Shown here piece by piece: positions 14,525-50,186 of a stretch of 59,422 nucleotides of DNA. Within the stretch, counting starts at the first letter, position 1. Every line of letters starts with the position of its first letter. The position numbers and the translations under genes are program-made. The notes beneath the pieces were generated by a model. The model did not search any database. It was not told where the DNA came from and was given only the letters and a program-made list of their open reading frames with translations. The DNA is from a plasmid: the sequence record NZ_LC586269.1, one strand, 5' to 3'.

Positions 14525-16342
14525 TCACTGCTGTATTACTGGTGCTCCGTCCTTTGCCGGATATATTCCGTCACACTTCTTATCGAAGAAGCCTCGGCAT
14601 CCAAAGAACGCGCTGGCTTCCTTACCCTTCTCCTTCTTCTCGATCAGCAGAAGTCCGCGTCCACATTTTGGACAAGGGTGAAGTGGTTCTATCTCGCGGA
14701 GCAGCTTCGCAATTTCGTCCTGCAACTGTTGATCGAAGCCCGCTATAACTGATCGATAATTCGCAGTACCCTTTGCTATTTCGTCCAACTTGCGTTCAAG
14801 TTCCCTGGTGAAATCCACGTCCATAAAGCTGAACCGGTTCAGAAGCACCTGGACCAGTTTCTCGCCACGGTCAGTAGGCTCCAAGAACTTCGTCCCCTTC
14901 TTCAATTGGACATAGCGCCGGGTCTTGGAAATGTTTTCCATAATTGCGGCAAACGACGAAGGCCTTCCGATCCCGCGGCTCTCCAGTTCCTTCACCAACG
15001 AGGCCTCGGTGAAGCGGCGTGCTGCTTTCGTCTTTGTCGTGACGACCTCACCGGAAGTCGCGGTTAGGGATGCGCCTGTCTCCAGCGGCGGAATCGCCCC
15101 TGTCGTGTGCGATACTTCGTCTGGTTTGTCCTCGGCGTCATCCTCGGCCAGGATTGTCTTGTAACCGGGGCTGACCAGCTCGCTATGCTCACCAGTGACA
15201 GCCACTGTCCCATCCAATCCCTCGGGCTTTAACTTGACCTTGGTGACCTTGAACACTGCATCCGCCATCTGACAGGCGACCGTCCGCTTCCAGATCAGTT
15301 GATACAGCTTGCGCTGGGCTTCGTCTTCTCCTGCCTCGAGCCGTGTAATGTCGGTGGGATGGATCCCCTTGTGTGCCTCCTGAGCGTCGGCTTTCGCCTT
15401 CCAGGTCCTGGGTTCGTCAGACAGCGGGAGATTCTGAGCGGCACAATAATCCCGAACGGCCACCAGCATATCGTCGGTGAGGTTCGGGTTGTCGGTACGC
15501 ATATAAGTGATGTGCCCCGCCTCGTACAACTTCTGCGCCGCCTCCATACAGGCCTTCGACCGAAGATTGAGCGCGTTACTAGCGGCCTGTTGAAGCGTAG
15601 ATGTGATGAACGGTTTGAACGGCGAGGACCTGGACTCACCAACGGAGTGCTCGAGGACTGTAAACTGCCGAGCGTTCGCAATACGCTCCGCAGTGGCCAG
15701 GTCGGTGCATTTCTCATCAGGTGCCCAGTCAGCGGACCAACCGCCCTGGAAGGCGAAGCGTGCCGAGTGATGCGTAACCGCAGTGTGGGCGCGGATGAGA
15801 TTTTCGCGTTCCACAACGAGTAACACCGCGACGCTCTGCACTCGACCGGCCGAGTAGTCGTACGTTGCCATCAGTTCCTGGACGATCGGGCTGATGTAGT
15901 AGCCAACGATCCTGTCGAGGATCCTGCGGGCCTCTTGAGCGGCGACCAATCTCACATTGATCTTTCGAGGTTCTGCGACCGCGCGAAGAATCTCCTTCTT
16001 CGAGATCTCCCCGAAGGTGATGCGCTTTGGATCCTGCAGGCCGAGGACTTGCTGGAGGTGCCAGGCGATCGCCTCCCCTTCCCTATCGTCGTCGGATCCC
16101 AGGTAGACCGCTCCGCCTGAGCTTAGCGCTCGCCTGGCTGCGTTCTTCAGGACTTCGGATACTTTCTTGCCCTCCCCTATGAATACATAGTCAGGGCGGT
16201 ATTCAGGACCTGCGACCCCCATTTCATGTTCCGGGAGATCCCGAATATGGCCGAAAGAGGCCTTGACCTCCCAGCCCGGCCCAAGATAGCCCTCGAAGGT
16301 CTTCGCCTTTGCCGGTGACTCTACGATCAGAAGATTGCCCAT
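14525..16342 (-). CDS. topB: Type IA DNA topoisomerase (Topo III-like) with C-terminal zinc ribbon
   Basis: 605 aa; TOPRIM start MGNLLIVESPAKAKT, GxDDDREGE, CPKCG...C zinc ribbon at C-terminus. Confidence 0.9.
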   Translation of the reverse strand: MGNLLIVESPAKAKTFEGYLGPGWEVKASFGHIRDLPEHEMGVAGPEYRPDYVFIGEGKKVSEVLKNAARRALSSGGAVYLGSDDDREGEAIAWHLQQVLGLQDPKRITFGEISKKEILRAVAEPRKINVRLVAAQEARRILDRIVGYYISPIVQELMATYDYSAGRVQSVAVLLVVERENLIRAHTAVTHHSARFAFQGGWSADWAPDEKCTDLATAERIANARQFTVLEHSVGESRSSPFKPFITSTLQQAASNALNLRSKACMEAAQKLYEAGHITYMRTDNPNLTDDMLVAVRDYCAAQNLPLSDEPRTWKAKADAQEAHKGIHPTDITRLEAGEDEAQRKLYQLIWKRTVACQMADAVFKVTKVKLKPEGLDGTVAVTGEHSELVSPGYKTILAEDDAEDKPDEVSHTTGAIPPLETGASLTATSGEVVTTKTKAARRFTEASLVKELESRGIGRPSSFAAIMENISKTRRYVQLKKGTKFLEPTDRGEKLVQVLLNRFSFMDVDFTRELERKLDEIAKGTANYRSVIAGFDQQLQDEIAKLLREIEPLHPCPKCGRGLLLIEKKEKGKEASAFFGCRGFFDKKCDGIYPAKDGAPVIQQ

Positions 16343-16350
16343 TGCTCACC

Positions 16351-16962
16351 TCACCCGACTTTCGCCGCGGTAGTGATCGCCGCGATCTGCTTACGTTGCT
16401 GGTGGTAGTGCTTGATCACTTCATCGAGTCGGGTCATGCATTGCCATATCGGCTTGGCCGCCTTCTTCTCACGCTTCTTGTACTCGCCGTAGTCGATGAA
16501 GCCGGACAGGTACATCTGGCGAAGCGCCTGAGAAATCTCATCGACGAGGACAATCGATCGGACGAAGCGATTGACCAGGGGCCAGGAGTGGCGACCGTCT
16601 ACCACCAACTCATAGGTCTGCTCTTGAGGCGCGCCGAACTCGATGCTCTTGAGCAGAGGATCGGCCATGCGTTCGTCGACCTCATCCCTGATAGTTTTCA
16701 GGGTTTCGGTCAACTTGGCCTCGTAGCTTTCGATGATTTCCCGCAGGCCTGGAATGACCTTTTTGGCCAGTGTTTTGGCGACCAAATGCTCAGGCTTCTT
16801 CGTCGTGCTGAACGATTCGACGGAGAACAGGCTATCGACAACCACCCGCCCGGAGATCCTGCGCGAGGAGGTTTCCCATATCCCAACCACGAACTTGTCG
16901 TGAACCGTAATGACGGTGTTGGCAGCTTTCTTGTTACCAGGAGCGTTCTTCTTTTCCATCAC
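16351..16962 (-). CDS. Hypothetical protein (203 aa) in the par-topB operon
   Basis: ORF track; operon position. Confidence 0.55.
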   Translation of the reverse strand: MMEKKNAPGNKKAANTVITVHDKFVVGIWETSSRRISGRVVVDSLFSVESFSTTKKPEHLVAKTLAKKVIPGLREIIESYEAKLTETLKTIRDEVDERMADPLLKSIEFGAPQEQTYELVVDGRHSWPLVNRFVRSIVLVDEISQALRQMYLSGFIDYGEYKKREKKAAKPIWQCMTRLDEVIKHYHQQRKQIAAITTAAKVG

Positions 16963-17435
16963 TTAATACCCGCAGCTACTCCTCTTAGGGCCAGGATCTT
17001 GCTGGGAGGCAGCGAGCGAATCTGGTCCTTGAGGAAGGCGACCGCAAAACGAAAATTTCGGCTAACAGTTGTCCCTTGGGTCTGGTCGATACCCAAGGGA
17101 ATGTCTGTGCCGCGTGAGTGGTGCTTCACTATGTCCGAAGCGAGTTGTTGCGCATCGACCGACTCGCCTGCCAGGCACCATTCGATTGCGTCGTCGAACA
17201 CATCGAACAGCGTCGGCTTGCCAGCCGCGACCGCTATCTGGTGAGCGTTGTAGGCGGGTAGACCATCGGCCGGGTTGTCCGTTGGACTACCCGGGCACAA
17301 GGCGTCTTCCCAGCGGATACGATAGAGCGTGCGCCCGTCGTGCTGGAATGGAACGTAGTCGGATAGCGTTGCGATTCTGGCAATTGGCATGGGGGTTATT
17401 TCACTTTTCCGCAAGTTCATCCAGGGCTTGAGCAA
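16959..17435 (-). CDS. Hypothetical protein (~150 aa; start uncertain)
   Basis: ORF track; overlaps parB end. Confidence 0.45.
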   Translation of the reverse strand: MLKPWMNLRKSEITPMPIARIATLSDYVPFQHDGRTLYRIRWEDALCPGSPTDNPADGLPAYNAHQIAVAAGKPTLFDVFDDAIEWCLAGESVDAQQLASDIVKHHSRGTDIPLGIDQTQGTTVSRNFRFAVAFLKDQIRSLPPSKILALRGVAAGIK

Positions 17436-18423
17436 GCGCCTCGATCAGCGCGCTCAGATCACCCTGACCCGGTTCGATGTTCAGCAGTACGGCCAGGGCT
17501 TGGGCTCTCTTCGGGGTCAACATGAGAGAGGCGCTGCCGTTGGTTTCAGAATCTGAAACCACTGGGCCCGAAGAGGTGGCAGCCGTATTGGCGCTGTCAC
17601 TCGTTGAAGCGCTACCCGTGGTTGCCGCTCCATCCTCGCTGGAGGGCTGCTGGGTGGTGCCGGTTTCAGAATCTGAAACTGACCCCTGCCCTGCCCCCGG
17701 CGCCGGCGGCTCCGATTTCTTTTTTTCACGCGGCAGCAGCGCCTTGATGGCCGTCTGGATGCTTTCCCCTTTCTCCAGGCGCTTGCTCAGTTTCTTCAGG
17801 GTATCCGGCCCCATCTTGTCGAGCTTTTCCAGGTCGTAGATGATGTTGACGTCCCGGAATTCATCTAGCTTCGCAAACTCCTGTGCCTCGGGGCTCAGCT
17901 TGAAAACCTTCATATAGCGGCTCAGGCGCGACTTGTCCTTGATGCCGTGTACCGCAAGGATTTCCTCAGTGGTGAATCCGAATTCCTCCTTGTCCCGCTT
18001 GATCGAGCATGCGGTTTGCCAAACGGTCAGCCCCTGGCCGAGGACGTTGCCCGTCACATGGTCCATTCGCCGTTCGCGAACGCCACCTTTACTGATGATG
18101 CACGGCAGCAGCTGCACATCATCCGGAGCGTCTTCGGTCGCCCTCCAGCGGCATTCTCCCTCGATGATCTTGTGCTTCCCTGTTTCGTCTGCTGGTTCCA
18201 CCCAAAGAGCTTTTCGGATTCCGTAGTGGCGGCCCTCCTCGAGGGGGATCAGCGCACTCCTGCGGATGCCGGCGATGTGGGCGAGAGTTCTTTCGGCCTC
18301 CCAGTCATCACGGTCTTGCATCGGGTCCGGGTAGAGGTCGGAGCGGTGGATCAGCACGATCCGTTCACGTGGTTCGTTGTCCGACGATTTGCTGTTCAAC
18401 AGTTCGGCGATGGCATCACTCAT
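17401..18423 (-). CDS. parB: ParB-family partition protein; two copies of the TTTCAGAATCTGAAA palindrome lie inside its coding sequence
   Basis: 340 aa; ParB/Srx N-domain; overlaps parA by 4 nt. Confidence 0.8.
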   Translation of the reverse strand: MSDAIAELLNSKSSDNEPRERIVLIHRSDLYPDPMQDRDDWEAERTLAHIAGIRRSALIPLEEGRHYGIRKALWVEPADETGKHKIIEGECRWRATEDAPDDVQLLPCIISKGGVRERRMDHVTGNVLGQGLTVWQTACSIKRDKEEFGFTTEEILAVHGIKDKSRLSRYMKVFKLSPEAQEFAKLDEFRDVNIIYDLEKLDKMGPDTLKKLSKRLEKGESIQTAIKALLPREKKKSEPPAPGAGQGSVSDSETGTTQQPSSEDGAATTGSASTSDSANTAATSSGPVVSDSETNGSASLMLTPKRAQALAVLLNIEPGQGDLSALIEALAQALDELAEK

Positions 18424-19229
18424 TGCTTGGACTCCAACAGTTTCTTGCAGAAGGCTTCGACTTCGGCCAGGGCGTCTCGAGCCGAGTCATTGTCCGGCTC
18501 AATCCACTTGCCCTGGCTGAAAGCCTTCTTGATCGGATTGCGGTACGCGATTACCCCGAGCAGCGCTCGTTCCTGGTACTTCTCGACCAGCTCGTTGTAG
18601 ATAACCCGTTCTGTCGTTGCTTCGGGCACCTTCTTCCCGAGATAGCTCACCAGCTTCGGTACTCGGTTGATGAGGAATCCTTCCCAGGACAGGTCCGGGT
18701 TCATGCGGTTGCGAATGACCTTCAGAATCTTCGCCAGCTCATGAAGGGAGGTGATCGCGTTGTTGTCGAGGTCGATCGGAGAGTAGACCCGGTGCGAAGC
18801 GATCAGCGCGGCCAGCACGATGTTTCCGTTGCCGGCTGGTGTGTCGATCAACACGTAGTCATAGGACTCGAAGTCGGGAACGTTCTGTTTGAGGTTCTCC
18901 TCCAGCTGGTTCAGAACCATGAGGCTGGCAGAGCGGTTTACCGCTGACATATCCGAGTGCCCCTGGATCAGGTGGATTCGATCCGAGATAGGGCTCACCA
19001 CGATCTTGCGCTGTTCGTCGGGGTCAACGAACAGATCCGTAACATTGCTGTACTGCGAGTACCGAACATCTGCCCCCTGGAAGTTGTTGGTCAGGCTGGC
19101 AATGTTGTCCAGGTCGACCAGAAGAACCTTCTTCTGGAGCTGGCCTGCGATGTAGCAGGCCAGCCCGGTCAGACTGGTGGTCTTGCCGACGCCGCCTTTG
19201 GGCGTCATTACGGAGTAGATAGTTGGCAT
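18420..19229 (-). CDS. parA: ParA/Soj partition ATPase (deviant Walker A KGGVGKTT)
   Basis: 269 aa MPTIYSVMTPKGGVGKTTSLTGLA. Confidence 0.92.
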   Translation of the reverse strand: MPTIYSVMTPKGGVGKTTSLTGLACYIAGQLQKKVLLVDLDNIASLTNNFQGADVRYSQYSNVTDLFVDPDEQRKIVVSPISDRIHLIQGHSDMSAVNRSASLMVLNQLEENLKQNVPDFESYDYVLIDTPAGNGNIVLAALIASHRVYSPIDLDNNAITSLHELAKILKVIRNRMNPDLSWEGFLINRVPKLVSYLGKKVPEATTERVIYNELVEKYQERALLGVIAYRNPIKKAFSQGKWIEPDNDSARDALAEVEAFCKKLLESKQ

Positions 19230-19231
19230 AG

Positions 19232-21340
19232 TCAGATTCCGTCTACGTTGTCGAGAGAGGACAGGTCCACGTCTTGGCCCTGGCCGCTAGGTGATTTCTT
19301 CTCTTGCTTCATCATCTTGTTCTTCTTCTCGCCAGAAGAAGCGAACAAATTGTTTGCAGCCGCGTCGATCATGGCTTGTTGCTCCGGGGTGAGCCCGGCC
19401 GGACCGTCATCTGCTTGCTGGAGTTGTTCTGCAGCGACTGGGATATCGTCGACGCCTGCGAATGGGTCTTCCTCCTGGTCAAACGGAATCGTGTCATCCG
19501 GTTGCTGGTCAAGCTCTGCGAATGGGTCATCGCCGATCATGTCCTCAGGGCTCGGCTCTATCGGTGCTGGAACGGCTGGAACAGTAGAGGAGGGGACGGC
19601 AGCCGGGGAACCCTGGGGGTCCTTCTGGCTCTGCTGTAGAGCAACGTAATGGCTGAGTGGGTACGCATGCTTGTAGGGCACCCAGCAGCTGTACATGACC
19701 GTGCTCAGTACGTTAGGGCGAATAAGCACGGCAACCCGAGGGGGGAGGGCAAGGATGACGTTAGTGGAAATGAAGTTTTCCTCTTGCTGGCCAATACTGC
19801 GCTCGCCTGTCCACTCTTCAGCACCGCCTTCATTTCGCTCAACGCGTTCCATCTTAGTCACGCTTTTCTGCGTAACGCCGGTATTATCCGACAACCACTC
19901 AGCCGTTTTATATTCCGCCGCGCGATGACCGATTGTAATTTGCGTATTTGTCTCGATACCGTTCTTAATTGACTCGGCATTTAATGTTTTGTCGGTCAAG
20001 TTAAGCGGGTCTTCGATTGACTGATAGGCTAATGTCATCAAAAGTTTCTTCGACAGAACAGTGGCCAACGAGTTGGCTAAAGTGTCTGTCATCATAAATC
20101 GTGCTTCGTCAATAGTTAGTTTAACGAAGTTTGGAAGTTGGACGCGTCGAACAGTTTGAATAATTTCTTCAAGCATGCAGTTCGCCGCCTTGCGAACAAC
20201 AGTATCTTGCAGGTCGGATTTTATATAAACGACACTGCCGGCGAGAAGTTCCTTTTCAATATTTAACCCCTCGCCTTCGGGTTCTAGGGCGTCGATAAAG
20301 CGCATTTCCATAAGTGGCGATTCGATGTTCCCCGCATACGTGAATACGAGGTTCTTTTCCGACTCACTGAGCGAGTTTGGGGGATACTGGATGAGTTCTG
20401 CCAAATGAGAAAGACTGCCGTCCCAATGGGGCATGAGCATATCCAAGACGCGGCGGGCATTCTTCTTATAGTGATCCGCATCGGTGCCGGTGTCGTTCAG
20501 TCCCAGTACCTTGGTGATGCGCTCGCGGCGCTCGCGAAGGGTGCCGTTCTTGAAGGGGTGGTAGCCCGTTTCGCGCCCCCCTGTGAGGTCACACACCACT
20601 ATCGGAGCCCTGCCGTTTCGGACGCAAGACTCGCTCATGATATGAACGATATTGTCATCGGGTTTCTGGTCAATGAACCATGCCCCCCAGCCCCGCCAAA
20701 TTGCTTGGTCTAGCTCGACGCCGAGGAACACGCCTTTACCGGTTTGAGAAGGGCCGAGCGCCTTGACGTGAGTTTTCACATACACCGAAAGCGGCGTGTA
20801 GAGCGGAGCGTTGTTCTCGTCTAGCGCGAAGAAAAACTCGTCGTCCTTGTAATGGTCGCTGGGCAAAAAATCCTTTGCCTTCAGACTGGCGGTTACCGTG
20901 CGAATGTCACTCAGCGCGTCCCCTGACTGCATCACTCCCCAGTTTCGCCAGGCGGCGGAAATCCTGGGGCGCACCACCCTGAGGATCAGCATCTTGACGA
21001 AGAAGGGTAGGGCGAAGAAAGGAACAGCTATCCACCACAGATCTCGCAGGCTGTTGAGCAGTATGTCAAACCAGATAAGCCAATATTCCTGGCCACCGTC
21101 ATAGCCGAACTGATAGACGGCTACGACAAACAAAGTAAGGGCAAAAACGGGCAGGGCGGTCATAAACACGATGATTGCGGCGCGCCTTACCCAAGTCGCA
21201 ACAATCGTCAGGCCGCTTGCATCAGTGTCGTGGTGGATAGCTCCACCTACTGACAGTGCCAGCATAAGGCCTAAAAAAAGGGAGACGAGCATCGGCGCCC
21301 AAGGGTCCGTCTGCTCCATCACGATTCTCAAAAATTCCAT
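19232..21340 (-). CDS. Type IV coupling protein-like ATPase (VirD4/TraD family): N-terminal TM helices, P-loop-like GPSQTGKG, Walker B LTIDEA, acidic C-terminal tail
   Basis: Track ORF 19232..21388; ATG with RBS at 21340 preferred; the P-loop is non-canonical. Confidence 0.6.
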   Translation of the reverse strand: MEFLRIVMEQTDPWAPMLVSLFLGLMLALSVGGAIHHDTDASGLTIVATWVRRAAIIVFMTALPVFALTLFVVAVYQFGYDGGQEYWLIWFDILLNSLRDLWWIAVPFFALPFFVKMLILRVVRPRISAAWRNWGVMQSGDALSDIRTVTASLKAKDFLPSDHYKDDEFFFALDENNAPLYTPLSVYVKTHVKALGPSQTGKGVFLGVELDQAIWRGWGAWFIDQKPDDNIVHIMSESCVRNGRAPIVVCDLTGGRETGYHPFKNGTLRERRERITKVLGLNDTGTDADHYKKNARRVLDMLMPHWDGSLSHLAELIQYPPNSLSESEKNLVFTYAGNIESPLMEMRFIDALEPEGEGLNIEKELLAGSVVYIKSDLQDTVVRKAANCMLEEIIQTVRRVQLPNFVKLTIDEARFMMTDTLANSLATVLSKKLLMTLAYQSIEDPLNLTDKTLNAESIKNGIETNTQITIGHRAAEYKTAEWLSDNTGVTQKSVTKMERVERNEGGAEEWTGERSIGQQEENFISTNVILALPPRVAVLIRPNVLSTVMYSCWVPYKHAYPLSHYVALQQSQKDPQGSPAAVPSSTVPAVPAPIEPSPEDMIGDDPFAELDQQPDDTIPFDQEEDPFAGVDDIPVAAEQLQQADDGPAGLTPEQQAMIDAAANNLFASSGEKKNKMMKQEKKSPSGQGQDVDLSSLDNVDGI

Positions 21341-21426
21341 AGAACACCCTCTACCTTCGTGCCCAAAAAACCTTCCGCGAAGCTTCAATCATCCACCGCC
21401 AGGAGGGAAGGGCGGCGCGTCCAAAA

Positions 21427-21705
21427 TTTCAGAATCTGAAATTTCCTACGGCCTTCCCTCCTAGCTCCAGAGTTTCAGAATCTGAAATTTGCGTATCAGC
21501 GCGTTCGCGCTTTCCCGCGGTTTCAGATTCTGAAATGGCCATGTGGCTGTCGCCTGGGGCGGTCGGCCAAATGGCTCCGGCTCTGCCGCTCTGCTGGGAC
21601 GCGATGAGAGTTTCAGAATCTGAAACTCCCGTGCGCCCCTGTCGTACCACCCCTTTGTCTTGTTCGAGTCGCCTGGGGAGGTGGCAAAAGTTTCAGAATC
21701 TGAAA
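21427..21705. promoter_or_regulatory. Five copies of 15-bp palindrome TTTCAGAATCTGAAA (21427, 21473, 21521, 21611, 21691): centromere-like parS candidate; two more copies at 17544 and 17664 inside parB
   Basis: Perfect palindromes with 40-90 bp spacing upstream of the T4CP-parAB operon. Confidence 0.6.
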
Positions 21706-21756
21706 CTTTTAGGCCACTCGCTAACCCTATGCGTCCTCTATGTTTAAGTCAAGGGG

Positions 21757-23140
21757 TTGTGCTACGATAAAATCATAGAGAAAAGCATAGAGAAAGAGCA
21801 TGAAAAAGCCCAAAGCAAAGAGCCAGGAGCGCCCCGACCAGGTGGTCGGGGTGACGCCAGCGTCTGCTGGCATCATGGCTCCGAAACGCATGCGTTTCTT
21901 TGCCGAAGAGCGCGCCGCTGCATGCAGCGTCGTGCCTGCCCTTTACGGGACAGGCATACACCCCCGGAGGAGCGCTCCGGGGGTGTGCAGGACTCCACGA
22001 CGCATGCGTCGTTCCGCCCTCTTTTTCTGCCTGCGCCCTGGACGGGCTTGTCCGAAAAATTCACCCGCGCGCCCGTCCACTCTCTTCGAGAGCGGACCCC
22101 CCAGCTTCCTGGGATTGCGCAACGCTTCGCCGCGGTCCTTCGTCCCTTGCTCAGCTGCTCCACCCCGGAACCCGGGGGGTCCGCTCTCGCCGACTTCAGC
22201 CCTGGCGGGCTTCAGTAGTCGAGCGCAGACGGGCGCGCGCTGCACGTCGCCTGATGCTTCGCACTCCAGGTCCCGGCCTGGACGGCCGTCCCTGGAGCAG
22301 ACCGGCATTCGGCCCTGGGGGGCCTCGGTGCCTTGCGAGCCGCGTGGGCGCGTCTCGCATCTGTCAGGCTTCTGTTTGTTTCGGCCCACCTCGCTGACGC
22401 GAACTGGGCCGCGCGCTGCCGGAACAGCTTTTGGCTGTTCCGGAGAGCGGGGCGCCTGCCGACCTCCGCTCGACGGCTCCGCCATCGCTGCGCATCGCAT
22501 TGCCCTCGCCGACCCATTCGGGCGGCTGGGCTCGCTCGCTTGCTCGGCGAAGCGTCGTCACCTGGGCCGAGTTGCTGGGCGCCCCCCGAAACAGCTTCTG
22601 GCTGTTTCGGAAAAGCCGGAACAGCTTTTGGCTGTTCCGAAGAGCAGGGGAGCTTGCCGACCTCCGCTCGACGACTCCGCCATCGCCGCGCATCGCATTG
22701 CCCTCGCCGACCCGTTCGGGCGGCTGGGCTCGCTCGCTTGCTCGGCGAAGCGTCGTCACCTGGGCCGAGTTGCCGGGCTCCCCCCGAAACAGCTTCTGGC
22801 TGTTTCGGAAAAGCTGGGCGCCGACTTTGCCTCGCTCGACGGCTTCGCCCTGCGCTTCACTTCGCATCGTCTGCGCCGGCCTTTACAGGCGGCTGACTCG
22901 CTCGCTCGCTTGGTCAAGCGTCGTTCCCTACACTGCGTGCCGGGGCGCCCAATCGAAACAGCTTGTGGCTGTTTCGAAAGAGCCGGAGAGCTTCGCCGCC
23001 CTGTGCAGCTATCGGCGACAAAAGCTCGTCGTAATCAAACACCTGTACCCGACTGCCCTGCGGAAACAGCTCGCGGCTGTTTCCGAGGGCCGGAACAGCT
23101 TCTGGCTGTTCGGAGTCGGGAGATGAGTAAGGAGCGAGAG
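21757..23140. repeat. 1.4-kb GC-rich noncoding region with ~7 palindromic iterons (CGRAACAGCTNNTGGCTGTTYCG) and two ~170-bp direct repeats (22440-22610, 22640-22800); candidate oriT or oriV
   Basis: Repeats seen directly; ORFs called here are frame artefacts. Confidence 0.6.
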
Positions 23141-23141
23141 A

Positions 23142-23900
23142 TTGACTGAGCGTCTAATGGACGGTTGGACCGGGTCCCGAGGTAAGGAGCGGAGCCGGGA
23201 AAAAATCAAAGAGGTCGTGCGGTGGCTCGCCCTCTTTGACTTCTCCAACCAATCGCTGTTGGCCAAGGCCTACGGCGCTGAGGTCAGAGGTCAGACTGTG
23301 TTCTTCAGACGCCTTGAGGAGTCTCGCCTAGTCGTTGTTACGAAGGCGCCGGGTCTCGACTGGAAAATCTACTCGCTGAGCCAGAGCGGGATGGAGATGG
23401 CAAGGGTGCTGCTGCCGCACCTGGATCTCAAGCGACGGCGAACGCCGTCGTGGATCCAGCTGGTCCATGCATTCTCCATCCAGGGGGCGATCATGGCGCG
23501 ACGGGATGAGATCAGCGGCTTCATGCCAGAAAAAGAGCTTTCCAAGATGAAGGCCAACCATTTGCCGGATGCTGTTCTCGAATACAAGAATGGGAAGAAG
23601 GTCGCTTTGGAAGTGGAGTTGAACCATAAAAGCGTTGGTCGGATTTACAATATCTTCCTGTCGCACCTCAAGAACATCCATAAAGGTCACTACGATCAGG
23701 TTCTCTATCTGTTTTCAAGCGAGCAGCTCAAGAACAACTACGAAGAGAAGTACAAGGTAAATATCTGGCCGATGTACATTATTAGCGAGCGAGGAAAGCT
23801 TGTTCTCAGCCCTGAACACCGTGGTGGATTCGATGCTGCCAAGATGGTTCATCCCACTGATAAGTTCAGGTTCATCTGCGAGGAGCTGTATTCATTATGA
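23142..23900 (+). CDS. Winged-helix plus PD-(D/E)xK-like nuclease-fold protein (252 aa); candidate DNA-processing protein
   Basis: Motif ...PDAVLEY...KKVALEVELNHK; iterons end 30 bp upstream; stop overlaps start of the VirB11-like gene (ATGA). Confidence 0.45.
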   Translation: MTERLMDGWTGSRGKERSREKIKEVVRWLALFDFSNQSLLAKAYGAEVRGQTVFFRRLEESRLVVVTKAPGLDWKIYSLSQSGMEMARVLLPHLDLKRRRTPSWIQLVHAFSIQGAIMARRDEISGFMPEKELSKMKANHLPDAVLEYKNGKKVALEVELNHKSVGRIYNIFLSHLKNIHKGHYDQVLYLFSSEQLKNNYEEKYKVNIWPMYIISERGKLVLSPEHRGGFDAAKMVHPTDKFRFICEELYSL

Positions 23901-24934
23901 GCCTAACTGAAACTGTATTTGGTCCAGTTCCCAGCGATCCGAAGTCTTTACGTTCGTGGGAGTCGGTAATCCTCTATGCGAAACCGTTCCTTAAGTATTA
24001 CTCCGATCCTGAAGTTACAGAGATCATGATCAATGGCTGGGACTCGATCTTCATCGAGAAGAACAGCCGAATGATTCGAGTCGAGGAGAAATTCGCTAGC
24101 GAGTCTGACCTCCAGCGGTTCATCACCCAATGCGCTAACGCGCTCAACCTGGTGGATCCTCACAAGGACCCCGAGACGAACGCGCGGTTGCCCGATGCAT
24201 CCCGCATCTGTGCAACCATGCCGGCCATCACTCCATTTGGCGCGACGGTGACTCTTCGGAAGGCTCCAACTCGTTTGCTCACCCTGGAGGACCTGGTTTC
24301 CTACGGGGCCATGAGTGCGGAGATGGCCGATTTCATTGGCGAGCAGGTTTCGAAGAGGGTCAACTTCCTGTGCAGCGGAAACACGGGCTCAGGAAAAACG
24401 ACCTTGCTTCGGGCTGTCTCCAAGTTTCTCGACCCCTCTACTCGGATCATTACCGCGGAAGACACGATGGAACTGCACCTCCGCGCGACCCTTCCCAACT
24501 GCATTTCGATGGAGGCCTCGAAACAGTCTGATGGGGTCCCGAAGGAGCTTTCCGATCTGATCCGCATCTCGCTTCGGCAGCGTCCTGACAGCCTCTGGGT
24601 AGGGGAGCTACGTGATGCCAAAGCGGTCAATGCATGGGTCACTGCGATGAACACCGGCCTGGATGGTTGCGCCTCAACCATCCACTCCAACGGCCCGGGC
24701 GACTCCATCCACCGCTGCCAGTACCTGATGGCTTCAGCGGGCGTGATGGATTACGACCTGGTGGGCAAGATTCTCATGGGCGACCTGCACATGCTGATCC
24801 ATGCCAGCCGTAACCACCGGCTGTATGGGAGAAAGATCACGCACGTCTGCCTTATCCAGAACGGCAAGATCGTCCCGGTCTTCGAGTACAACATAGAGAA
24901 GGGAGAACACATCTACCTCAAGCCGAGCTGCTGA
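23897..24934 (+). CDS. virB11: VirB11/TrbB-family secretion ATPase (Walker A GNTGSGKTT)
   Basis: 345 aa; P-loop, Asp box and His box arrangement. Confidence 0.85.
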   Translation: MSLTETVFGPVPSDPKSLRSWESVILYAKPFLKYYSDPEVTEIMINGWDSIFIEKNSRMIRVEEKFASESDLQRFITQCANALNLVDPHKDPETNARLPDASRICATMPAITPFGATVTLRKAPTRLLTLEDLVSYGAMSAEMADFIGEQVSKRVNFLCSGNTGSGKTTLLRAVSKFLDPSTRIITAEDTMELHLRATLPNCISMEASKQSDGVPKELSDLIRISLRQRPDSLWVGELRDAKAVNAWVTAMNTGLDGCASTIHSNGPGDSIHRCQYLMASAGVMDYDLVGKILMGDLHMLIHASRNHRLYGRKITHVCLIQNGKIVPVFEYNIEKGEHIYLKPSC

Positions 24935-48212: not shown

Positions 48213-50186
48213 ATGAACAACAACACTCAGAAGCAACAGCAAAAGCCGGCTCAAGGAGCATCTAGCAAAGCAAGGGGGAAGGCCAAGAGCGCTGCCGCGT
48301 CGAAACTGCCGGGCGGGGTGTGGAAAGAGATTCCGCTCAAGAAGCTCCGTCTGTGGGCGAAGAACGTGCGGGTATCTGCCGCCAGTGCCGAGGCCGGGGA
48401 TGCCCTGGAAGCGAGCCTGCAATCCCAGGGGCTGCTCCAGAACCTCGTCGTCATCGAGGCCGAGGATGGTTTCTACGACGTTGCCGCCGGCGGTCGCCGC
48501 TTGGCGAAGCTGCATGCCCTGGTCGAGAAGAAGAAGCTCAGCGCCGACACCCTCATCATGTGCCAGATCGTGGACGAGAGCACCGGGCTTACTGCGAGCC
48601 TGTCCGAGAACGTCCAGCGCGAAGCCATGCACCCGGCCGACGAGTTCATCGCGTTCCAGGAACTGTCCAACGCCGGCATTCCTGTTGCTGATATCGCCGC
48701 AAGCTTCGGCGTCACCCCGGTGGTGGTGAAGCAACGCCTCAAGCTGGCCAACCTCTCCCCAAGGCTGATCCAGGCCTACCGCGATGGAGAGGCGAACATG
48801 GAGCAGTTGCAGGCCCTGGCCATCTGCGACAACCACGAAATTCAGGAAGCGGCATTCTTCGACGTACAGTCGTGGATGCGTCAACCCTACGAACTGCGCC
48901 GGGCGGTGACCAAGGGAGAAACCCTGGTGCGCCATGAACCCCTGGCGAGATTCGTCGGACTGGAAGCCTATGAGCAAGCCGGCGGCGCAGTACGCCGCGA
49001 CCTGTTCGGCAACGCGGAGGACTCCTACATCACGGACCTGCCGCTCCTCGACAAGCTCGCTATCGAGAAGCTGGAGCCTATCGCCGAGCCGATCCGGGCG
49101 GAGGGCTGGGGGTGGGTTGAAGTCATGCCCCGCTTCAACGCCTCAGAACTGTACAACTTCGGACGGATTCACCCTCTGCCCGTCGAGTTGACCCCGGAAC
49201 AACAGGCCGAGCGTGCCAGTCTCAAGGCCGCTCTCGATCAGTTGGAAACCGAGATCGAAAACGCCGTCGAGGCCGAGGATTTCGACACCATCGAGCGCCT
49301 GGAGCAGGAGCAAGGGGAAGCTGAAGATCGTCTCCACGCCCTGGAGAGCGGAGCGGTAAGGTCCTACGACCCGGAGGCGATGACCAAGGCGGGATGCATC
49401 ATCAGTGTTGGGCGCTCCGGAGACGTGGACGTCTGGCGTGCCCTGGTCAAGCCCGAAGACAGGGCTGCCGTCGAAGGGGCCGAGAACCAGGGGACGGACG
49501 GCCAGAGCACCGACGACGCACCGAAGGAAAAAACGGCGCGCCTGTCGGACCGCATGGGCCGCCAGTTGACCGCTCACAAGACCGCAGCCCTGCAAGTCGA
49601 ACTGGCCCGAAATTCAAAAGTGGCCCTGGTTGCAGTGGTCCACAAGCTGGCCATCCAGATCATCCACAGCGACCACTCCCCGCGCTTCGCCGTACCGGTC
49701 GGCGTCAGCGTCTCACAGCGCGGCGGCCTGACCGAATACGCTTCCGACCTCAAGGACTCGGCCGTCCTCCAGGCACTCGAAGACATGCGTGGGCAGTGGC
49801 GGGAGCGACTGCCGAGCGAACCCCGCGAACTGTTCGCCGCCCTCCTCGATCTGTCGATGGCTGACCTCAACGACCTGCTCGCCTTCTGCGTTGCCACCGG
49901 CGTCGACGTCGTGAGCGACAAGGGCACCGATGGCCAGAGCGGTGCGGACGTCCTGGCCCAAACCCTCGAACTGGATATGCGCAACTGGTGGAAGCCGACC
50001 GCCGACGCCTATTTCCGTGAGGTGCCCAAGGGGTTGACCCTGGAAGCCATGCAGACCATCGCACCGGCAGAAGTGGCCCGCCTCTCCACCCTCAAGAAGA
50101 ACGACCTGGCCAACGAGGCCGGACGCCTGGCCGAAGGGTCGAACTGGCTGCCGGCGATCCTCGCTAGCCACGAGCCGAAGGCGTAA
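48213..50186 (+). CDS. ParB/Srx-domain (ParB-like nuclease) protein, 657 aa, leading-region type
   Basis: ParB N-domain ...LLQNLVVIEAEDGFYDVAAGGRRLAKLHAL...; track ORF 48012.. over-extended. Confidence 0.7.
   Translation: MNNNTQKQQQKPAQGASSKARGKAKSAAASKLPGGVWKEIPLKKLRLWAKNVRVSAASAEAGDALEASLQSQGLLQNLVVIEAEDGFYDVAAGGRRLAKLHALVEKKKLSADTLIMCQIVDESTGLTASLSENVQREAMHPADEFIAFQELSNAGIPVADIAASFGVTPVVVKQRLKLANLSPRLIQAYRDGEANMEQLQALAICDNHEIQEAAFFDVQSWMRQPYELRRAVTKGETLVRHEPLARFVGLEAYEQAGGAVRRDLFGNAEDSYITDLPLLDKLAIEKLEPIAEPIRAEGWGWVEVMPRFNASELYNFGRIHPLPVELTPEQQAERASLKAALDQLETEIENAVEAEDFDTIERLEQEQGEAEDRLHALESGAVRSYDPEAMTKAGCIISVGRSGDVDVWRALVKPEDRAAVEGAENQGTDGQSTDDAPKEKTARLSDRMGRQLTAHKTAALQVELARNSKVALVAVVHKLAIQIIHSDHSPRFAVPVGVSVSQRGGLTEYASDLKDSAVLQALEDMRGQWRERLPSEPRELFAALLDLSMADLNDLLAFCVATGVDVVSDKGTDGQSGADVLAQTLELDMRNWWKPTADAYFREVPKGLTLEAMQTIAPAEVARLSTLKKNDLANEAGRLAEGSNWLPAILASHEPKA

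What the first reader, a model, noticed from the sequence alone, without database searches (positions are those of the whole stretch)
17544..21705. Seven copies of palindrome TTTCAGAATCTGAAA: five intergenic and two embedded in parB coding sequence
Perfect 15-bp palindromes (one TTTCAGATTCTGAAA variant) cluster at 21427-21705 upstream of the T4CP-parA-parB-topB operon. Two more lie within parB at 17544 and 17664, each encoding VSDSET. This fits a ParB-binding centromere, and also autoregulation. Placement inside parB is unusual.
Basis: seen in the sequence. Interest (0 to 1): 0.55.

Follow-up and report, generated by a model that had tools for sequence, protein, structure and literature searches.

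The report
Plasmid ParB binding sites, two inside parB
Seven copies of a 15-17 bp palindrome on a Pseudomonas aeruginosa resistance plasmid are very probably the docking sites of the plasmid's own, previously unrecognised ParB-type segregation and regulator protein; two of them lie inside the parB gene and dictate a short stretch of its amino-acid sequence, which is a neat but not unprecedented arrangement.

Summary
There are seven exact TTTCAGA[A/T]TCTGAAA sites: five at 21427-21705 upstream of a T4CP-parA-parB-orf-orf-topoisomerase operon, and two in the 340-aa ORF, each encoding VSDSET. Chance expects 0.08 (two mismatches allowed), and no further copy of the site appears at up to 3 mismatches.

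The "variant" is the same palindrome with its unpaired central base flipped.

The 340-aa ORF misses Pfam thresholds but belongs to the ParB/KorB/Noc family by profile and predicted structure. Both in-gene sites lie in its disordered linker.

About 15 relatives (ParB 42-54% identical) keep the architecture, with 2-6 sites just upstream of the T4CP gene and usually one in the parB linker. Their site is TTTCCGAWTCGGAAA. The in-gene copy follows each lineage's intergenic version through paired synonymous Ser-codon changes, and even through flank-driven amino-acid changes (V..T, L..S, G..P).

In closely related plasmids the sites are invariant while the spacers vary (0/70 vs 50/204 positions).

Two other candidate binders are missing from plasmids that keep the sites.

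The best reading is a ParB centromere and auto-operator. Binding itself is inferred, not shown. It is a new member of a known kind, of moderate interest.

The parts
21427..21441 (.). Palindrome site 1 (aTTTCAGAATCTGAAAt), the site nearest the T4CP start codon at 21340
   Evidence: Invariant in plasmids that are 92-96% identical.
21473..21487 (.). Palindrome site 2 (gTTTCAGAATCTGAAAt)
21521..21535 (.). Palindrome site 3 (gTTTCAGATTCTGAAAt), the same site with its central base flipped
21611..21625 (.). Palindrome site 4, a perfect 17-mer GTTTCAGAATCTGAAAC
21691..21705 (.). Palindrome site 5, a perfect 17-mer whose palindrome extends to AAAAGTTTCAGAaTCTGAAACTTTT. The central base is A in some close relatives and T in others.
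17664..17678 (.). In-gene site A (GTTTCAGATTCTGAAAC on the coding strand), encoding V249-S-D-S-E-T254 in the ParB linker
   Evidence: It lies inside the predicted disordered segment 233-295.
17544..17558 (.). In-gene site B, encoding V289-S-D-S-E-T294. This is the copy that aligns with the single in-gene site of the relatives.
17401..18423 (-). parB: a 340-aa ParB/KorB-family protein. It has an N-terminal ParB_N-like domain with GECRWR, then an HTH, a disordered linker and a C-terminal helical domain.
18420..19229 (-). parA: a 269-aa Walker-type ParA/MinD-class ATPase with no N-terminal HTH. It is the only ParA annotated on these plasmids.
   Evidence: PF13614, PF01656
19232..21340 (-). Type IV coupling protein gene, the first gene of the operon
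   Evidence: PF12696
14525..17390 (-). Distal operon genes: orf143 (16959-17390), orf202 (16351-16959) and a type IA topoisomerase (14525-16342)
   Evidence: The gene order is conserved in all relatives.
21710..21830 (.). A+T-rich segment with CTCTATG/CATAGAG repeats, lying just before the array in the T4CP direction. It is 100% conserved among close relatives. It contains a weak promoter-like TTGACT-17-TAGGGT on the minus strand (21724-21752).
   Evidence: The promoter assignment is my own reading; the consensus scan found none.

Best explanation
The palindromes are the specific DNA-binding sites of the 340-aa ParB/KorB-family protein encoded in the same operon, and so are analogous to parS and to a KorB operator.

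**Inferred mechanism**
- Dimers of this ParB bind each 15-17 bp palindrome through their helix-turn-helix domains.
- The five-site array and the two in-gene sites lie about 3.8 kb apart and bracket the T4CP and parA genes. Together they nucleate a ParB-DNA complex.
- With the adjacent small ParA ATPase, this complex serves as the plasmid's centromere.
- The array lies between the probable promoter region and the T4CP start codon, so the same complex should also repress the T4CP-parA-parB operon (autoregulation).

**The in-gene copies**
They are genuine sites kept by selection on the DNA. The conserved peptide [V/L/I/G]-S-[D/E]-S-E-[T/S/P] in an otherwise unalignable linker is a by-product of that selection.

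**Shown here:** the sites exist, they are conserved, they co-vary between gene and intergenic region, and the protein belongs to the ParB family.

**Inferred only:** who binds the sites, the partition role, the repression, and any CTP-dependent spreading.
For: **1. Not chance.** Seven sites are found against 0.08 expected.

**2. Protein identity.**
- A profile of the family hits Caulobacter ParB at E = 4.8e-8, and also Noc and Myxococcus ParB.
- The AlphaFold model (pLDDT 73) matches ParB, KorB (8qa9, TM-score 0.72 normalised to the target) and Noc with probability 1.0.
- Of 17 family members, 10 match PF02195 and 8 match PF08535.

**3. Conserved architecture.** About 15 non-redundant relatives with ParB 42-54% identical carry 2-6 palindromes ending 17-86 bp before the T4CP start codon. 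All but one with the relevant region available also carry one copy in the parB linker.

**4. Co-variation.**
- The relatives use TTTCCGAWTCGGAAA. The in-gene copy matches each lineage's intergenic version through paired synonymous changes, TCA to TCC and TCT to TCG.
- Flank changes also track: G..C lineages encode V..T and C..G lineages encode L..S. In one further relative (L033), whose upstream array is not on the contig, the in-gene site is GGTTCCGATTCGGAACC and encodes GSDSEP.
- The two Ser codons in the motif are fixed (TCC in 13 sequences and TCG in 13). Most other conserved Ser columns use 3-5 codons; one is fixed as AGC.

**5. The peptide is dispensable.** The P. silvicola plasmid and the pKPC_UVA01-type ParBs lack both the in-gene site and the peptide.

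**6. Close relatives.** Among plasmids 92-96% identical, 0 of 70 site positions vary against 50 of 204 spacer positions (p = 1e-7). Only the central base flips.

**7. Half-site resemblance.** GTTTCA and [G/C]TTTCC resemble parS (TGTTTCAC-GTGAAACA) and the Noc site NBS (TATTTCCC-GGGAAATA), as given in PMC7383237.

**8. Other binders excluded.** The TrfB/KorA-like gene is absent from the window. The complete 35-kb plasmid pPGS17-1 has 4+1 sites but neither that gene nor the 657-aa second ParB-like protein.

**9. Link to ParA.** The N-terminal 18 residues of ParB are present only where parA sits in the operon.
Against: - There is no binding, stability or expression data.
- The consensus scans found no sigma-70 promoter in the Pseudomonas loci, so the position of the array relative to the promoter is inferred.
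- The nucleotide-binding motifs are degenerate. GERRxR reads GECRWR in the Pseudomonas-clade proteins aligned (GESRWR in the Enterobacterales relatives), and the ENxxR box reads G-N-V-L-G in the window protein. CTP-clamp behaviour is therefore doubtful.
- Enterobacterales relatives keep a three-site array upstream of T4CP-parB but have no parA in the operon. They carry a separate ParA plus a small ORF elsewhere. Partition is therefore not the function conserved across the whole family.
- The core A/T to C/G switch is probably a single evolutionary event, so the co-variation rests on few independent changes.
- orf143 and orf202 are inherited with the sites in every lineage and have no known fold. 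They cannot be formally excluded as the binder.
Confidence: 0.72

Rival explanations
1. The ParB-like protein and its sites are mainly a transcriptional or conjugation control module for the coupling-protein operon. On this reading, the array represses T4CP expression or marks DNA for the transfer machinery, as KorB does at tra promoters, or as StbA/stbDR and VirC1/VirC2-overdrive do. Partition would be secondary or absent.
For: - The conserved core across the family is T4CP-ParB-orfX-orfY with the array directly upstream of T4CP.
- pKPC_UVA01-type plasmids have no parA in the operon. They carry a separate ParA plus an 83-aa ORF elsewhere.
- The array lies in the 1.8-kb non-coding region between the T4CP operon and the relaxase/T4SS operon.
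- Two relatives have an extra near-site next to the relaxase gene start.
Against: - In the window and in all Pseudomonas relatives, a parA sits between T4CP and parB. It is the only ParA on the plasmid.
- ParB there has an extra conserved N-terminal peptide of the kind that in other ParBs contacts ParA (the role is my inference).
- This reading is compatible with the best explanation rather than exclusive of it.
Confidence: 0.15
2. The sites are bound by another plasmid protein: orf143 or orf202 of the same operon, or the 657-aa second ParB-like protein at 48213-50186. The 340-aa ParB would not be the binder.
For: - orf143 and orf202 occur with the sites in every lineage, including pKPC_UVA01, and their function is unknown.
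- The 657-aa protein has canonical GGRR and ENVQR motifs and a ParB HTH.
Against: - The 657-aa protein and the KorA-like protein are absent from pPGS17-1, which still has 4+1 sites. The KorA-like gene is also absent from the window.
- orf143 and orf202 show no similarity to any DNA-binding family.
- The 340-aa protein has a ParB-type HTH, and the half-sites resemble parS and NBS.
Confidence: 0.07
3. The palindromes act as RNA hairpins in the operon transcript. Five would lie in the leader and two in the parB coding region, affecting mRNA stability, processing or translation.
For: All seven probably lie in one transcription unit. Each would form a 7-8 bp stem with a 1-3 nt loop, as can be read directly from the sequence.
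Against: - The base identity of most of the 15 positions is conserved across about 50% protein divergence, not merely the pairing.
- The observed arm changes are strictly symmetric Watson-Crick swaps.
- The central base flips freely, so orientation does not matter.
- No Rfam family matches.
- The sites resemble ParB-family DNA half-sites.
Confidence: 0.04
4. The repeat is a chance or selfish element, such as a REP- or MITE-like palindrome, with no function.
For: None beyond the sites being short palindromic repeats.
Against: - Seven copies are found against 0.08 expected.
- The sites are confined to one locus in complete plasmids.
- Position, number and sequence are conserved across distant relatives, and spacers vary while sites do not.
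Confidence: 0.01

Closest known systems
RK2/RP4 (IncP-1) IncC-KorB with OB operators
   Same: - A small ParA-type ATPase is paired with an HTH protein of the ParB fold.
- The binding sites are odd-length palindromes beginning with TTT. From memory, OB is TTTAGC(G/C)GCTAAA.
- A site lies at the promoter of the protein's own operon, so one protein serves both partition and repression.
- The predicted structure matches KorB 8qa9, and the Pfam KorB domain is found in 8 of 17 family members.
   Different: - KorB has 12 operators spread over the plasmid (reference list in PMC11790492) and works with KorA. Here all sites lie in one locus and the window has no KorA homologue.
- As far as I know, no OB site lies inside korB.
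- This operon starts with the coupling-protein gene.
Chromosomal ParB (Spo0J)/parS, including the parS inside spo0J of Bacillus subtilis
   Same: - The binding site is palindromic with a GTTTCA-type half-site; the parS consensus is TGTTTCAC-GTGAAACA (PMC7383237).
- A binding site lies inside the ParB gene itself, toward its 3' part (Lin & Grossman 1998, from memory).
- Multiple sites cluster near the parAB operon.
   Different: - parS is a 16-bp even palindrome. Here the GTTTCA arms are 5 bp apart rather than 2.
- ParB is about 20% identical and below Pfam thresholds.
- The GERRxR and ENxxR motifs are degenerate.
- The system is plasmid-borne and fused to a conjugation gene.
ParB/Noc specificity switch (parS versus NBS)
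   Same: The window lineage and its relatives differ by an A-to-C change after TTTC in the half-site (TTTCA versus TTTCC). parS and NBS differ in the same way at the same position (PMC7383237).
   Different: Here the switch happened within one plasmid ParB subfamily, and the protein's own coding sequence had to follow it. The residues responsible are unknown. R166, R169, K172 and R190 are candidates only.
Type Ib plasmid partition loci (for example TP228 parFGH and pB171 par2), from memory
   Same: A small ParA without an HTH is paired with a centromere made of repeated sites upstream of the operon. That centromere doubles as the operator for autoregulation by the centromere-binding protein.
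   Different: In those systems the centromere-binding protein is a small ribbon-helix-helix protein. Here it is a protein of the ParB fold with an HTH.
R388 StbA/StbB with stbDR repeats, and Ti-plasmid VirC1/VirC2 with overdrive (from memory)
   Same: A ParA-like ATPase and a DNA-binding protein act on repeats near the transfer genes, linking plasmid positioning with conjugation.
   Different: The DNA-binding proteins are unrelated. No evidence here shows that the array affects transfer.

Membership tests
ParB/KorB/Noc protein family (the 340-aa ORF) | N-terminal ParB_N fold followed by a helix-turn-helix DNA-binding domain | tested here: met
   - The window protein alone is below the Pfam cut-offs (PF08535 E = 0.005, PF02195 E = 0.011).
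- The family profile hits Caulobacter ParB at 4.8e-8, and also Noc and Myxococcus ParB.
- Foldseek gives probability 1.0 to ParB, KorB and Noc, with TM-score up to 0.72 normalised to the target.
- Of 17 homologues, 10 match PF02195 and 8 match PF08535.
ParB/KorB/Noc protein family (the 340-aa ORF) | CTP-binding motifs GERRxRA and ENxxR | tested here: inconclusive
   The first motif is G-E-C-R-W-R-A in all aligned members of the Pseudomonas clade (G-E-S-R-W-R in the Enterobacterales relatives). The second is T-A-E-N-G-A-R in most relatives but V-T-G-N-V-L-G in the window protein. Nucleotide binding cannot be judged from sequence.
ParB/KorB/Noc protein family (the 340-aa ORF) | CTP-dependent clamping and sliding from the loading site | not testable with these tools
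   This needs biochemistry: CTP binding and hydrolysis assays, cross-linking and single-molecule work.
ParABS plasmid partition system | A Walker-type ParA ATPase gene immediately upstream of the centromere-binding protein gene | tested here: met
   parA at 18420-19229 matches PF13614 at 1e-25 and PF01656 at 1e-15. It overlaps the parB start by 4 bp. It is the only ParA annotated on related plasmids.
ParABS plasmid partition system | A cis-acting centromere made of repeated binding sites for the ParB, close to the operon | tested here: inconclusive
   The repeated, conserved and co-varying palindromes at the operon are shown. Occupancy by ParB and centromere activity are not testable here.
ParABS plasmid partition system | ParB carries an N-terminal peptide that contacts and activates ParA | tested here: inconclusive
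   A conserved N-terminal 18-residue segment (xSISELLxAGRxDxxTGE) is present in every lineage with parA in the operon. It is missing in the two parA-less Enterobacterales lineages. This is a correlation only.
KorB-type global regulon (IncP-1) | Operators dispersed at many promoters around the plasmid | tested here: not met
   All 7 sites in the 59-kb window lie in the par locus, even at 3 mismatches. All 5 sites in the complete plasmid pPGS17-1 lie there too at up to 2 mismatches.
KorB-type global regulon (IncP-1) | A KorA/TrfB co-repressor partner | tested here: not met
   tblastn with the TrfB-related protein of NZ_CP027175.1 finds nothing in the window or in pPGS17-1.
Canonical chromosomal parS | A 16-bp even palindrome, TGTTNCACGTGAAACA | tested here: not met
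   The site is a 15/17-bp odd palindrome, GTTTCA-N5-TGAAAC. It shares the half-site with parS but the spacing differs.

The most novel reading that the evidence does not exclude
This rare ParB subfamily began as a DNA-binding module coupled to the coupling protein. The conserved core is T4CP-ParB-orfX-orfY with a palindrome array upstream, as in pKPC_UVA01-type plasmids, which keep a separate par system.

In the Pseudomonas clade it was then converted into a centromere-binding protein. Three things were gained together: a parA gene inserted into the operon, an N-terminal ParA-contact peptide, and a binding site written into its own disordered linker.

On this reading, the ParB-site complex physically links plasmid segregation with hand-over to the conjugation machinery. 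The in-gene site ties a ParB specificity to its own centromere, so that recombination cannot separate them.
Probability: 0.2. Interest if true: 0.7.

Novelty: new member of a known kind. Interest (0 to 1): 0.48.

Why it matters
- **Practical value.** These IncP-11-type plasmids carry resistance transposons in clinical P. aeruginosa. Their maintenance functions are annotated as 'hypothetical', and typing tools call them non-mobilizable. Naming the ParB and its sites gives a concrete handle for stability, incompatibility and curing experiments.
- **A clean natural experiment.** The in-gene site is a DNA-binding site that constrains a protein's sequence. When specificity changed (TTTCA to TTTCC, plus flank swaps), the coding sequence followed, through paired synonymous changes and even amino-acid changes.
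- **Direct testability.** Serine has six codons, so the site can be destroyed without touching the protein. This makes the role of an in-gene centromere site directly testable.

Tried and rejected
- **Promoter scans.** Consensus sigma-70 scans of the array region found no promoter in the window or in two Pseudomonas relatives. Only the Enterobacterales relative gave promoter-like hits just upstream of its array. The promoter position is therefore unproven.
- **The 449-aa ORF at 21800-23149.** It looked like a divergent gene but is spurious. Its translation is rich in R, P, A, S and C, it contains internal DNA repeats, and annotation pipelines leave the region empty.
- **Coordinate error.** I first assumed the window was colinear with NZ_CP027175.1 throughout, and took wrong coordinates for the second ParB-like and KorA-like genes (error). 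This was corrected.
- **Rfam.** A search of 17000-24000 found nothing.
- **Literature.** Searches for a description of these sites, or of parS inside spo0J, in the held library found nothing usable. The pMOS94-lineage paper does not mention them, and I did not verify that the window belongs to that lineage.
- **orf143 and orf202.** PDB sequence searches gave only noise.
- **Specificity residues.** Comparing the two specificity groups gave 40 candidate positions, too many to assign.

Full report
**1. The observation**

The pattern TTTCAGAATCTGAAA, or its central-base flip, occurs seven times in the 59,422-bp window, at 17544, 17664, 21427, 21473, 21521, 21611 and 21691. Allowing up to 2 mismatches, dinucleotide-preserving shuffles give 0.08 matches, and none of 100 shuffles reaches the observed count. 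Relaxing to 3 mismatches adds only one unrelated hit at 2917.

The 15-mer is two 7-bp arms around a single unpaired base. The 'variant' at 21521 is therefore the same site in the opposite orientation. Four of the seven sites extend to a perfect 17-mer, GTTTCAGAWTCTGAAAC.

Both in-gene copies read GTT TCA GAT TCT GAA AC on the coding (minus) strand. They encode VSDSET at residues 249-254 and 289-294 of the 340-aa ORF 17401-18423.

**2. Context**

Over positions 16300-22000 the window is 100% identical to part of P. aeruginosa plasmid NZ_CP027175.1. It is 92% identical to RP1-1 (LC700336), the archetype IncP-11 plasmid.

The genes T4CP (19232-21340), parA (18420-19229), the 340-aa ORF, orf143, orf202 and a type IA topoisomerase (14525-16342) overlap or lie at most 10 bp apart on the minus strand.

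The five intergenic sites sit 86-365 bp upstream of the T4CP start. They lie at one end of a roughly 1.8-kb stretch (21341-23141) that holds no credible gene. The 449-aa ORF there translates to low-complexity junk with internal repeats, and annotation pipelines leave it empty in relatives. On the far side begins the operon of a 252-aa putative relaxase and the T4SS.

**3. Is the ORF a ParB?**

Pfam does not call it at its thresholds. The only hits are weak: KorB domain at E = 0.005 and ParB_N at E = 0.011. RefSeq annotates it as hypothetical.

Four other lines of evidence agree that it is a genuine but divergent ParB/KorB/Noc-family protein.
- phmmer finds Caulobacter ParB at 2e-4.
- A profile of 17 homologues raises this to 4.8e-8 and adds Noc and Myxococcus ParB.
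- Of the 17 homologues, 10 match PF02195 and 8 match PF08535.
- An AlphaFold model (mean pLDDT 73) matches ParB, RK2 KorB (8qa9, TM-score 0.72 normalised to the target, rmsd 3.6) and Noc with probability 1.0.

The model's only disordered segment is residues 233-295. Both in-gene palindromes lie in it.

The nucleotide-binding motifs are degenerate. GERRxR reads GECRWR in every aligned member of the Pseudomonas clade, and GESRWR in the Enterobacterales relatives. The ENxxR box is kept in most relatives but reads G-N-V-L-G in the window protein. CTP-clamp behaviour should therefore not be assumed.

The subfamily is rare. Only 16 clusters score E <= 1e-30 among 1.84 billion representatives.

**4. 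Comparative evidence**

This is the core of the case.

*Conserved architecture.* I fetched about 15 non-redundant loci encoding homologues 42-54% identical. They come from Pseudomonas plasmids and metagenomes. Wherever the contig reaches far enough, the order relaxase, non-coding region, T4CP, parA, parB, orf, orf, topoisomerase recurs. The palindrome layout is also the same: 2-6 sites ending 17-86 bp before the T4CP start, and one site in the parB linker.

*Co-variation of the core.* In these relatives the site is TTTCCGAWTCGGAAA, not TTTCAGAWTCTGAAA. The in-gene copy has changed with it, because the two serine codons are TCC and TCG instead of TCA and TCT. These are synonymous changes on both arms that keep the peptide and the palindrome.

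*Co-variation of the flanks.*
- Lineages whose intergenic sites read G-TTTCCG...CGGAAA-C encode V-S-E-S-E-T.
- Lineages with C-...-G flanks encode L-S-[D/E]-S-E-S.
- One further lineage has GGTTCCGATTCGGAACC in the gene and encodes G-S-D-S-E-P. Its upstream array is not on the contig.

*D/E alternation.* The D/E alternation in the motif is simply the free central base, GAT versus GAA.

*Codon usage.* Across 16 aligned genes the two motif serines use a single codon each outside the IncP-11 group (13 sequences each). Most other conserved serine columns use 3-5 codons; one is fixed as AGC.

*Peptide dispensable.* The peptide is not needed by the protein. The P. silvicola plasmid has five upstream sites but neither the in-gene site nor the motif.

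*Close relatives.* Among plasmids 92-96% identical, no non-central site position varies (0 of 70), while 50 of 204 spacer columns do (Fisher p = 1e-7). One central base flips. Both in-gene sites are kept while the linker around them changes.

*Caution.* The core A/T to C/G switch is probably one evolutionary event. The deep codon-level conservation is stronger evidence than the number of switches.

**5. A more distant branch**

ParB homologues about 35% identical occur in roughly 100 Enterobacterales plasmids of the pKPC_UVA01 type.
- The operon there is T4CP-ParB-orf-orf with no parA.
- The ParB lacks the first 18 residues and has a short linker without an in-gene site.
- Three palindromes GTTTAC-N5-GTAAAC, 46 bp apart, sit directly upstream of the T4CP gene.
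- The geometry matches GTTTCA-N5-TGAAAC.
- pKPC_UVA01 carries a separate small ParA followed by an 83-aa ORF elsewhere.

So the conserved core is ParB plus an array upstream of T4CP. Three features co-occur only in the Pseudomonas clade: parA in the operon, the N-terminal peptide and the in-gene site.

**6. Who binds?**

The TrfB/KorA-like protein of NZ_CP027175.1 has no homologue in the window.

The window also has a second, 657-aa ParB-like protein (48213-50186) with canonical GGRR and ENVQR motifs. However, the complete 35-kb plasmid pPGS17-1 has exactly 4+1 sites, all at the par locus, and no homologue of either protein.

orf143 and orf202 are inherited with the sites everywhere and have no recognisable fold. 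They remain formal but unlikely candidates.

The ParB-type HTH points to the 340-aa ParB. So does the resemblance of the half-sites to parS (TGTTTCAC-GTGAAACA) and NBS (TATTTCCC-GGGAAATA), as given in PMC7383237.

**7. How it most likely works**

All of this section is inferred.
- ParB dimers bind the palindromes.
- The upstream array and the in-gene sites, about 3.8 kb apart in every lineage, bracket T4CP and parA. Together they nucleate a ParB-DNA complex.
- With the small ParA, which has no HTH of its own and so cannot autoregulate as type Ia ParAs do (established knowledge), this complex acts as the centromere.
- In several relatives the array ends only 17-21 bp before the T4CP start codon. 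The promoter must therefore lie within or upstream of the array, and bound ParB should repress the operon.
- The consensus scan finds no promoter in the Pseudomonas loci. It does find promoter-like hexamers just upstream of the array in pKPC_UVA01.
- In the window I see only a weak TTGACT-17-TAGGGT at 21724-21752 on the minus strand.

An RNA-hairpin role is unlikely for four reasons. Base identity is conserved, not just pairing. The changes are strictly symmetric. Orientation is free. Rfam finds nothing.

**8. Comparison with known systems**

The closest analogue is IncC-KorB of IncP-1 plasmids. It shares a small ParA, an HTH protein of the ParB fold, odd-length TTT-initial palindromes, and dual partition and repression roles (KorB background from PMC11790492, and from memory). 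This system fails two KorB-regulon features. Its sites are confined to one locus, and there is no KorA partner.

A binding site inside the ParB gene is known from B. subtilis spo0J (Lin & Grossman 1998, from memory). It is therefore not unprecedented.

The A-to-C difference between lineages sits at the same half-site position that separates parS from NBS.

I found no description of these sites in the searchable literature.

**9. Verdict**

It is a new member of a known kind: a ParB/KorB-type protein with its cognate palindromic sites. Three features stand out.
- The in-gene site dictates a peptide in the protein's own linker.
- That peptide has tracked changes in site specificity.
- The operon is fused to the coupling-protein gene, and some relatives lack parA.

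Interest is moderate.

Noticed in passing
window 21341-23141 (especially 22418-23123): This roughly 1.8-kb stretch between the T4CP operon and the relaxase/T4SS operon has no credible gene. It holds seven copies of a second, unrelated palindrome (CCGRAACAGCTTYTGGCTGTTYCGG), a 198-bp tandem duplication (22418-22814) and long inverted repeats (22087-22113 with 22163-22189). Relatives have an equivalent region with lineage-specific palindromes recurring every 195-210 bp (L008 GCTACCAGCSAAAAGCTGGTAGC; L028 AGCCCCCTTAGGGGGC). It may be oriT or another cis-acting region. No binder is known.
   Followed up: partly
window 21710-21830: This A+T-rich segment carries 12-bp repeats (AAAAGCATAGAG, 3.5 copies, with CTCTATG/CATAGAG motifs). 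It is 100% conserved among plasmids whose neighbouring spacers vary. Relatives carry TCTATTG/CAATAG repeats and ATGCGCATA...TATGCGCAT palindromes at the same place. It is probably the promoter or regulator region for the divergent operons.
   Followed up: partly
window 21800-23149 (+): This 449-aa ORF, the longest in the region, is almost certainly not a gene. Its translation is rich in R, P, A, S and C, it contains a repeated block of about 55 residues caused by DNA repeats, and it is not annotated in related RefSeq records.
   Followed up: yes
window 48213-50186 (+): This is a second ParB-like protein of 657 aa. It has canonical GGRR and ENVQR nucleotide-binding motifs and a ParB HTH, and it is not next to any ParA. 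It is absent from the related plasmid pPGS17-1. Its function and DNA target are unknown.
   Followed up: partly
L028/L029/L030 (pKPC_UVA01 NZ_CP009465.1; pTHO-017-3 AP022556.1): About 100 Enterobacterales plasmids, including the KPC plasmid pKPC_UVA01, carry a T4CP-ParB-orf-orf module about 35% identical to this one, without parA. Three GTTTAC-N5-GTAAAC palindromes 46 bp apart lie upstream of T4CP. These plasmids have a separate small ParA plus an 83-aa ORF elsewhere.
   Followed up: partly
window 23142-23900 (+) and plasmid typing: MOB-suite types the P. aeruginosa plasmids of this family as non-mobilizable, although they encode a full T4SS, a coupling protein and a 252-aa protein annotated as relaxase in RP1-1. 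The homologous module in pKPC_UVA01 is typed MOBC. A preprint reports RP1-1 as self-transmissible. The typing looks like a false negative.
   Followed up: no
window 17401-18423 (-), residues 88-93 and 124-129: The ParB has Cys in place of the first Arg of GERRxR. This holds in every aligned member of the Pseudomonas clade; the Enterobacterales relatives have Ser. The IncP-11 group has also lost the Glu and Arg of the ENxxR box, which most relatives keep. Nucleotide dependence may differ from canonical ParB.
   Followed up: partly
L008 5689-5709; L002 5691-5705; L022 9036-9050: Some relatives have extra imperfect sites. One lies next to the relaxase gene start, and one is a hybrid TTTCTG/CGGAAA site inside the topoisomerase gene. 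The window has no counterpart even at 3 mismatches.
   Followed up: no
L012/L013 (P. silvicola plasmid p2, CP093282.1): The same parB locus appears twice in this 84.9-kb record, so the record may be a dimeric assembly or hold a large duplication. Among the relatives with parA in the operon, it is the only one lacking the in-gene site and the peptide motif.
   Followed up: no
window versus NZ_CP027175.1: The window is not colinear with its best database match outside the par and transfer backbone. The resolvase and the 657-aa ParB-like gene lie at 48-52 kb in the window, followed by Tn3-family transposase sequence. NZ_CP027175.1 carries a TrfB-like gene and RadC that the window lacks. The accessory regions have been rearranged.
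   Followed up: no
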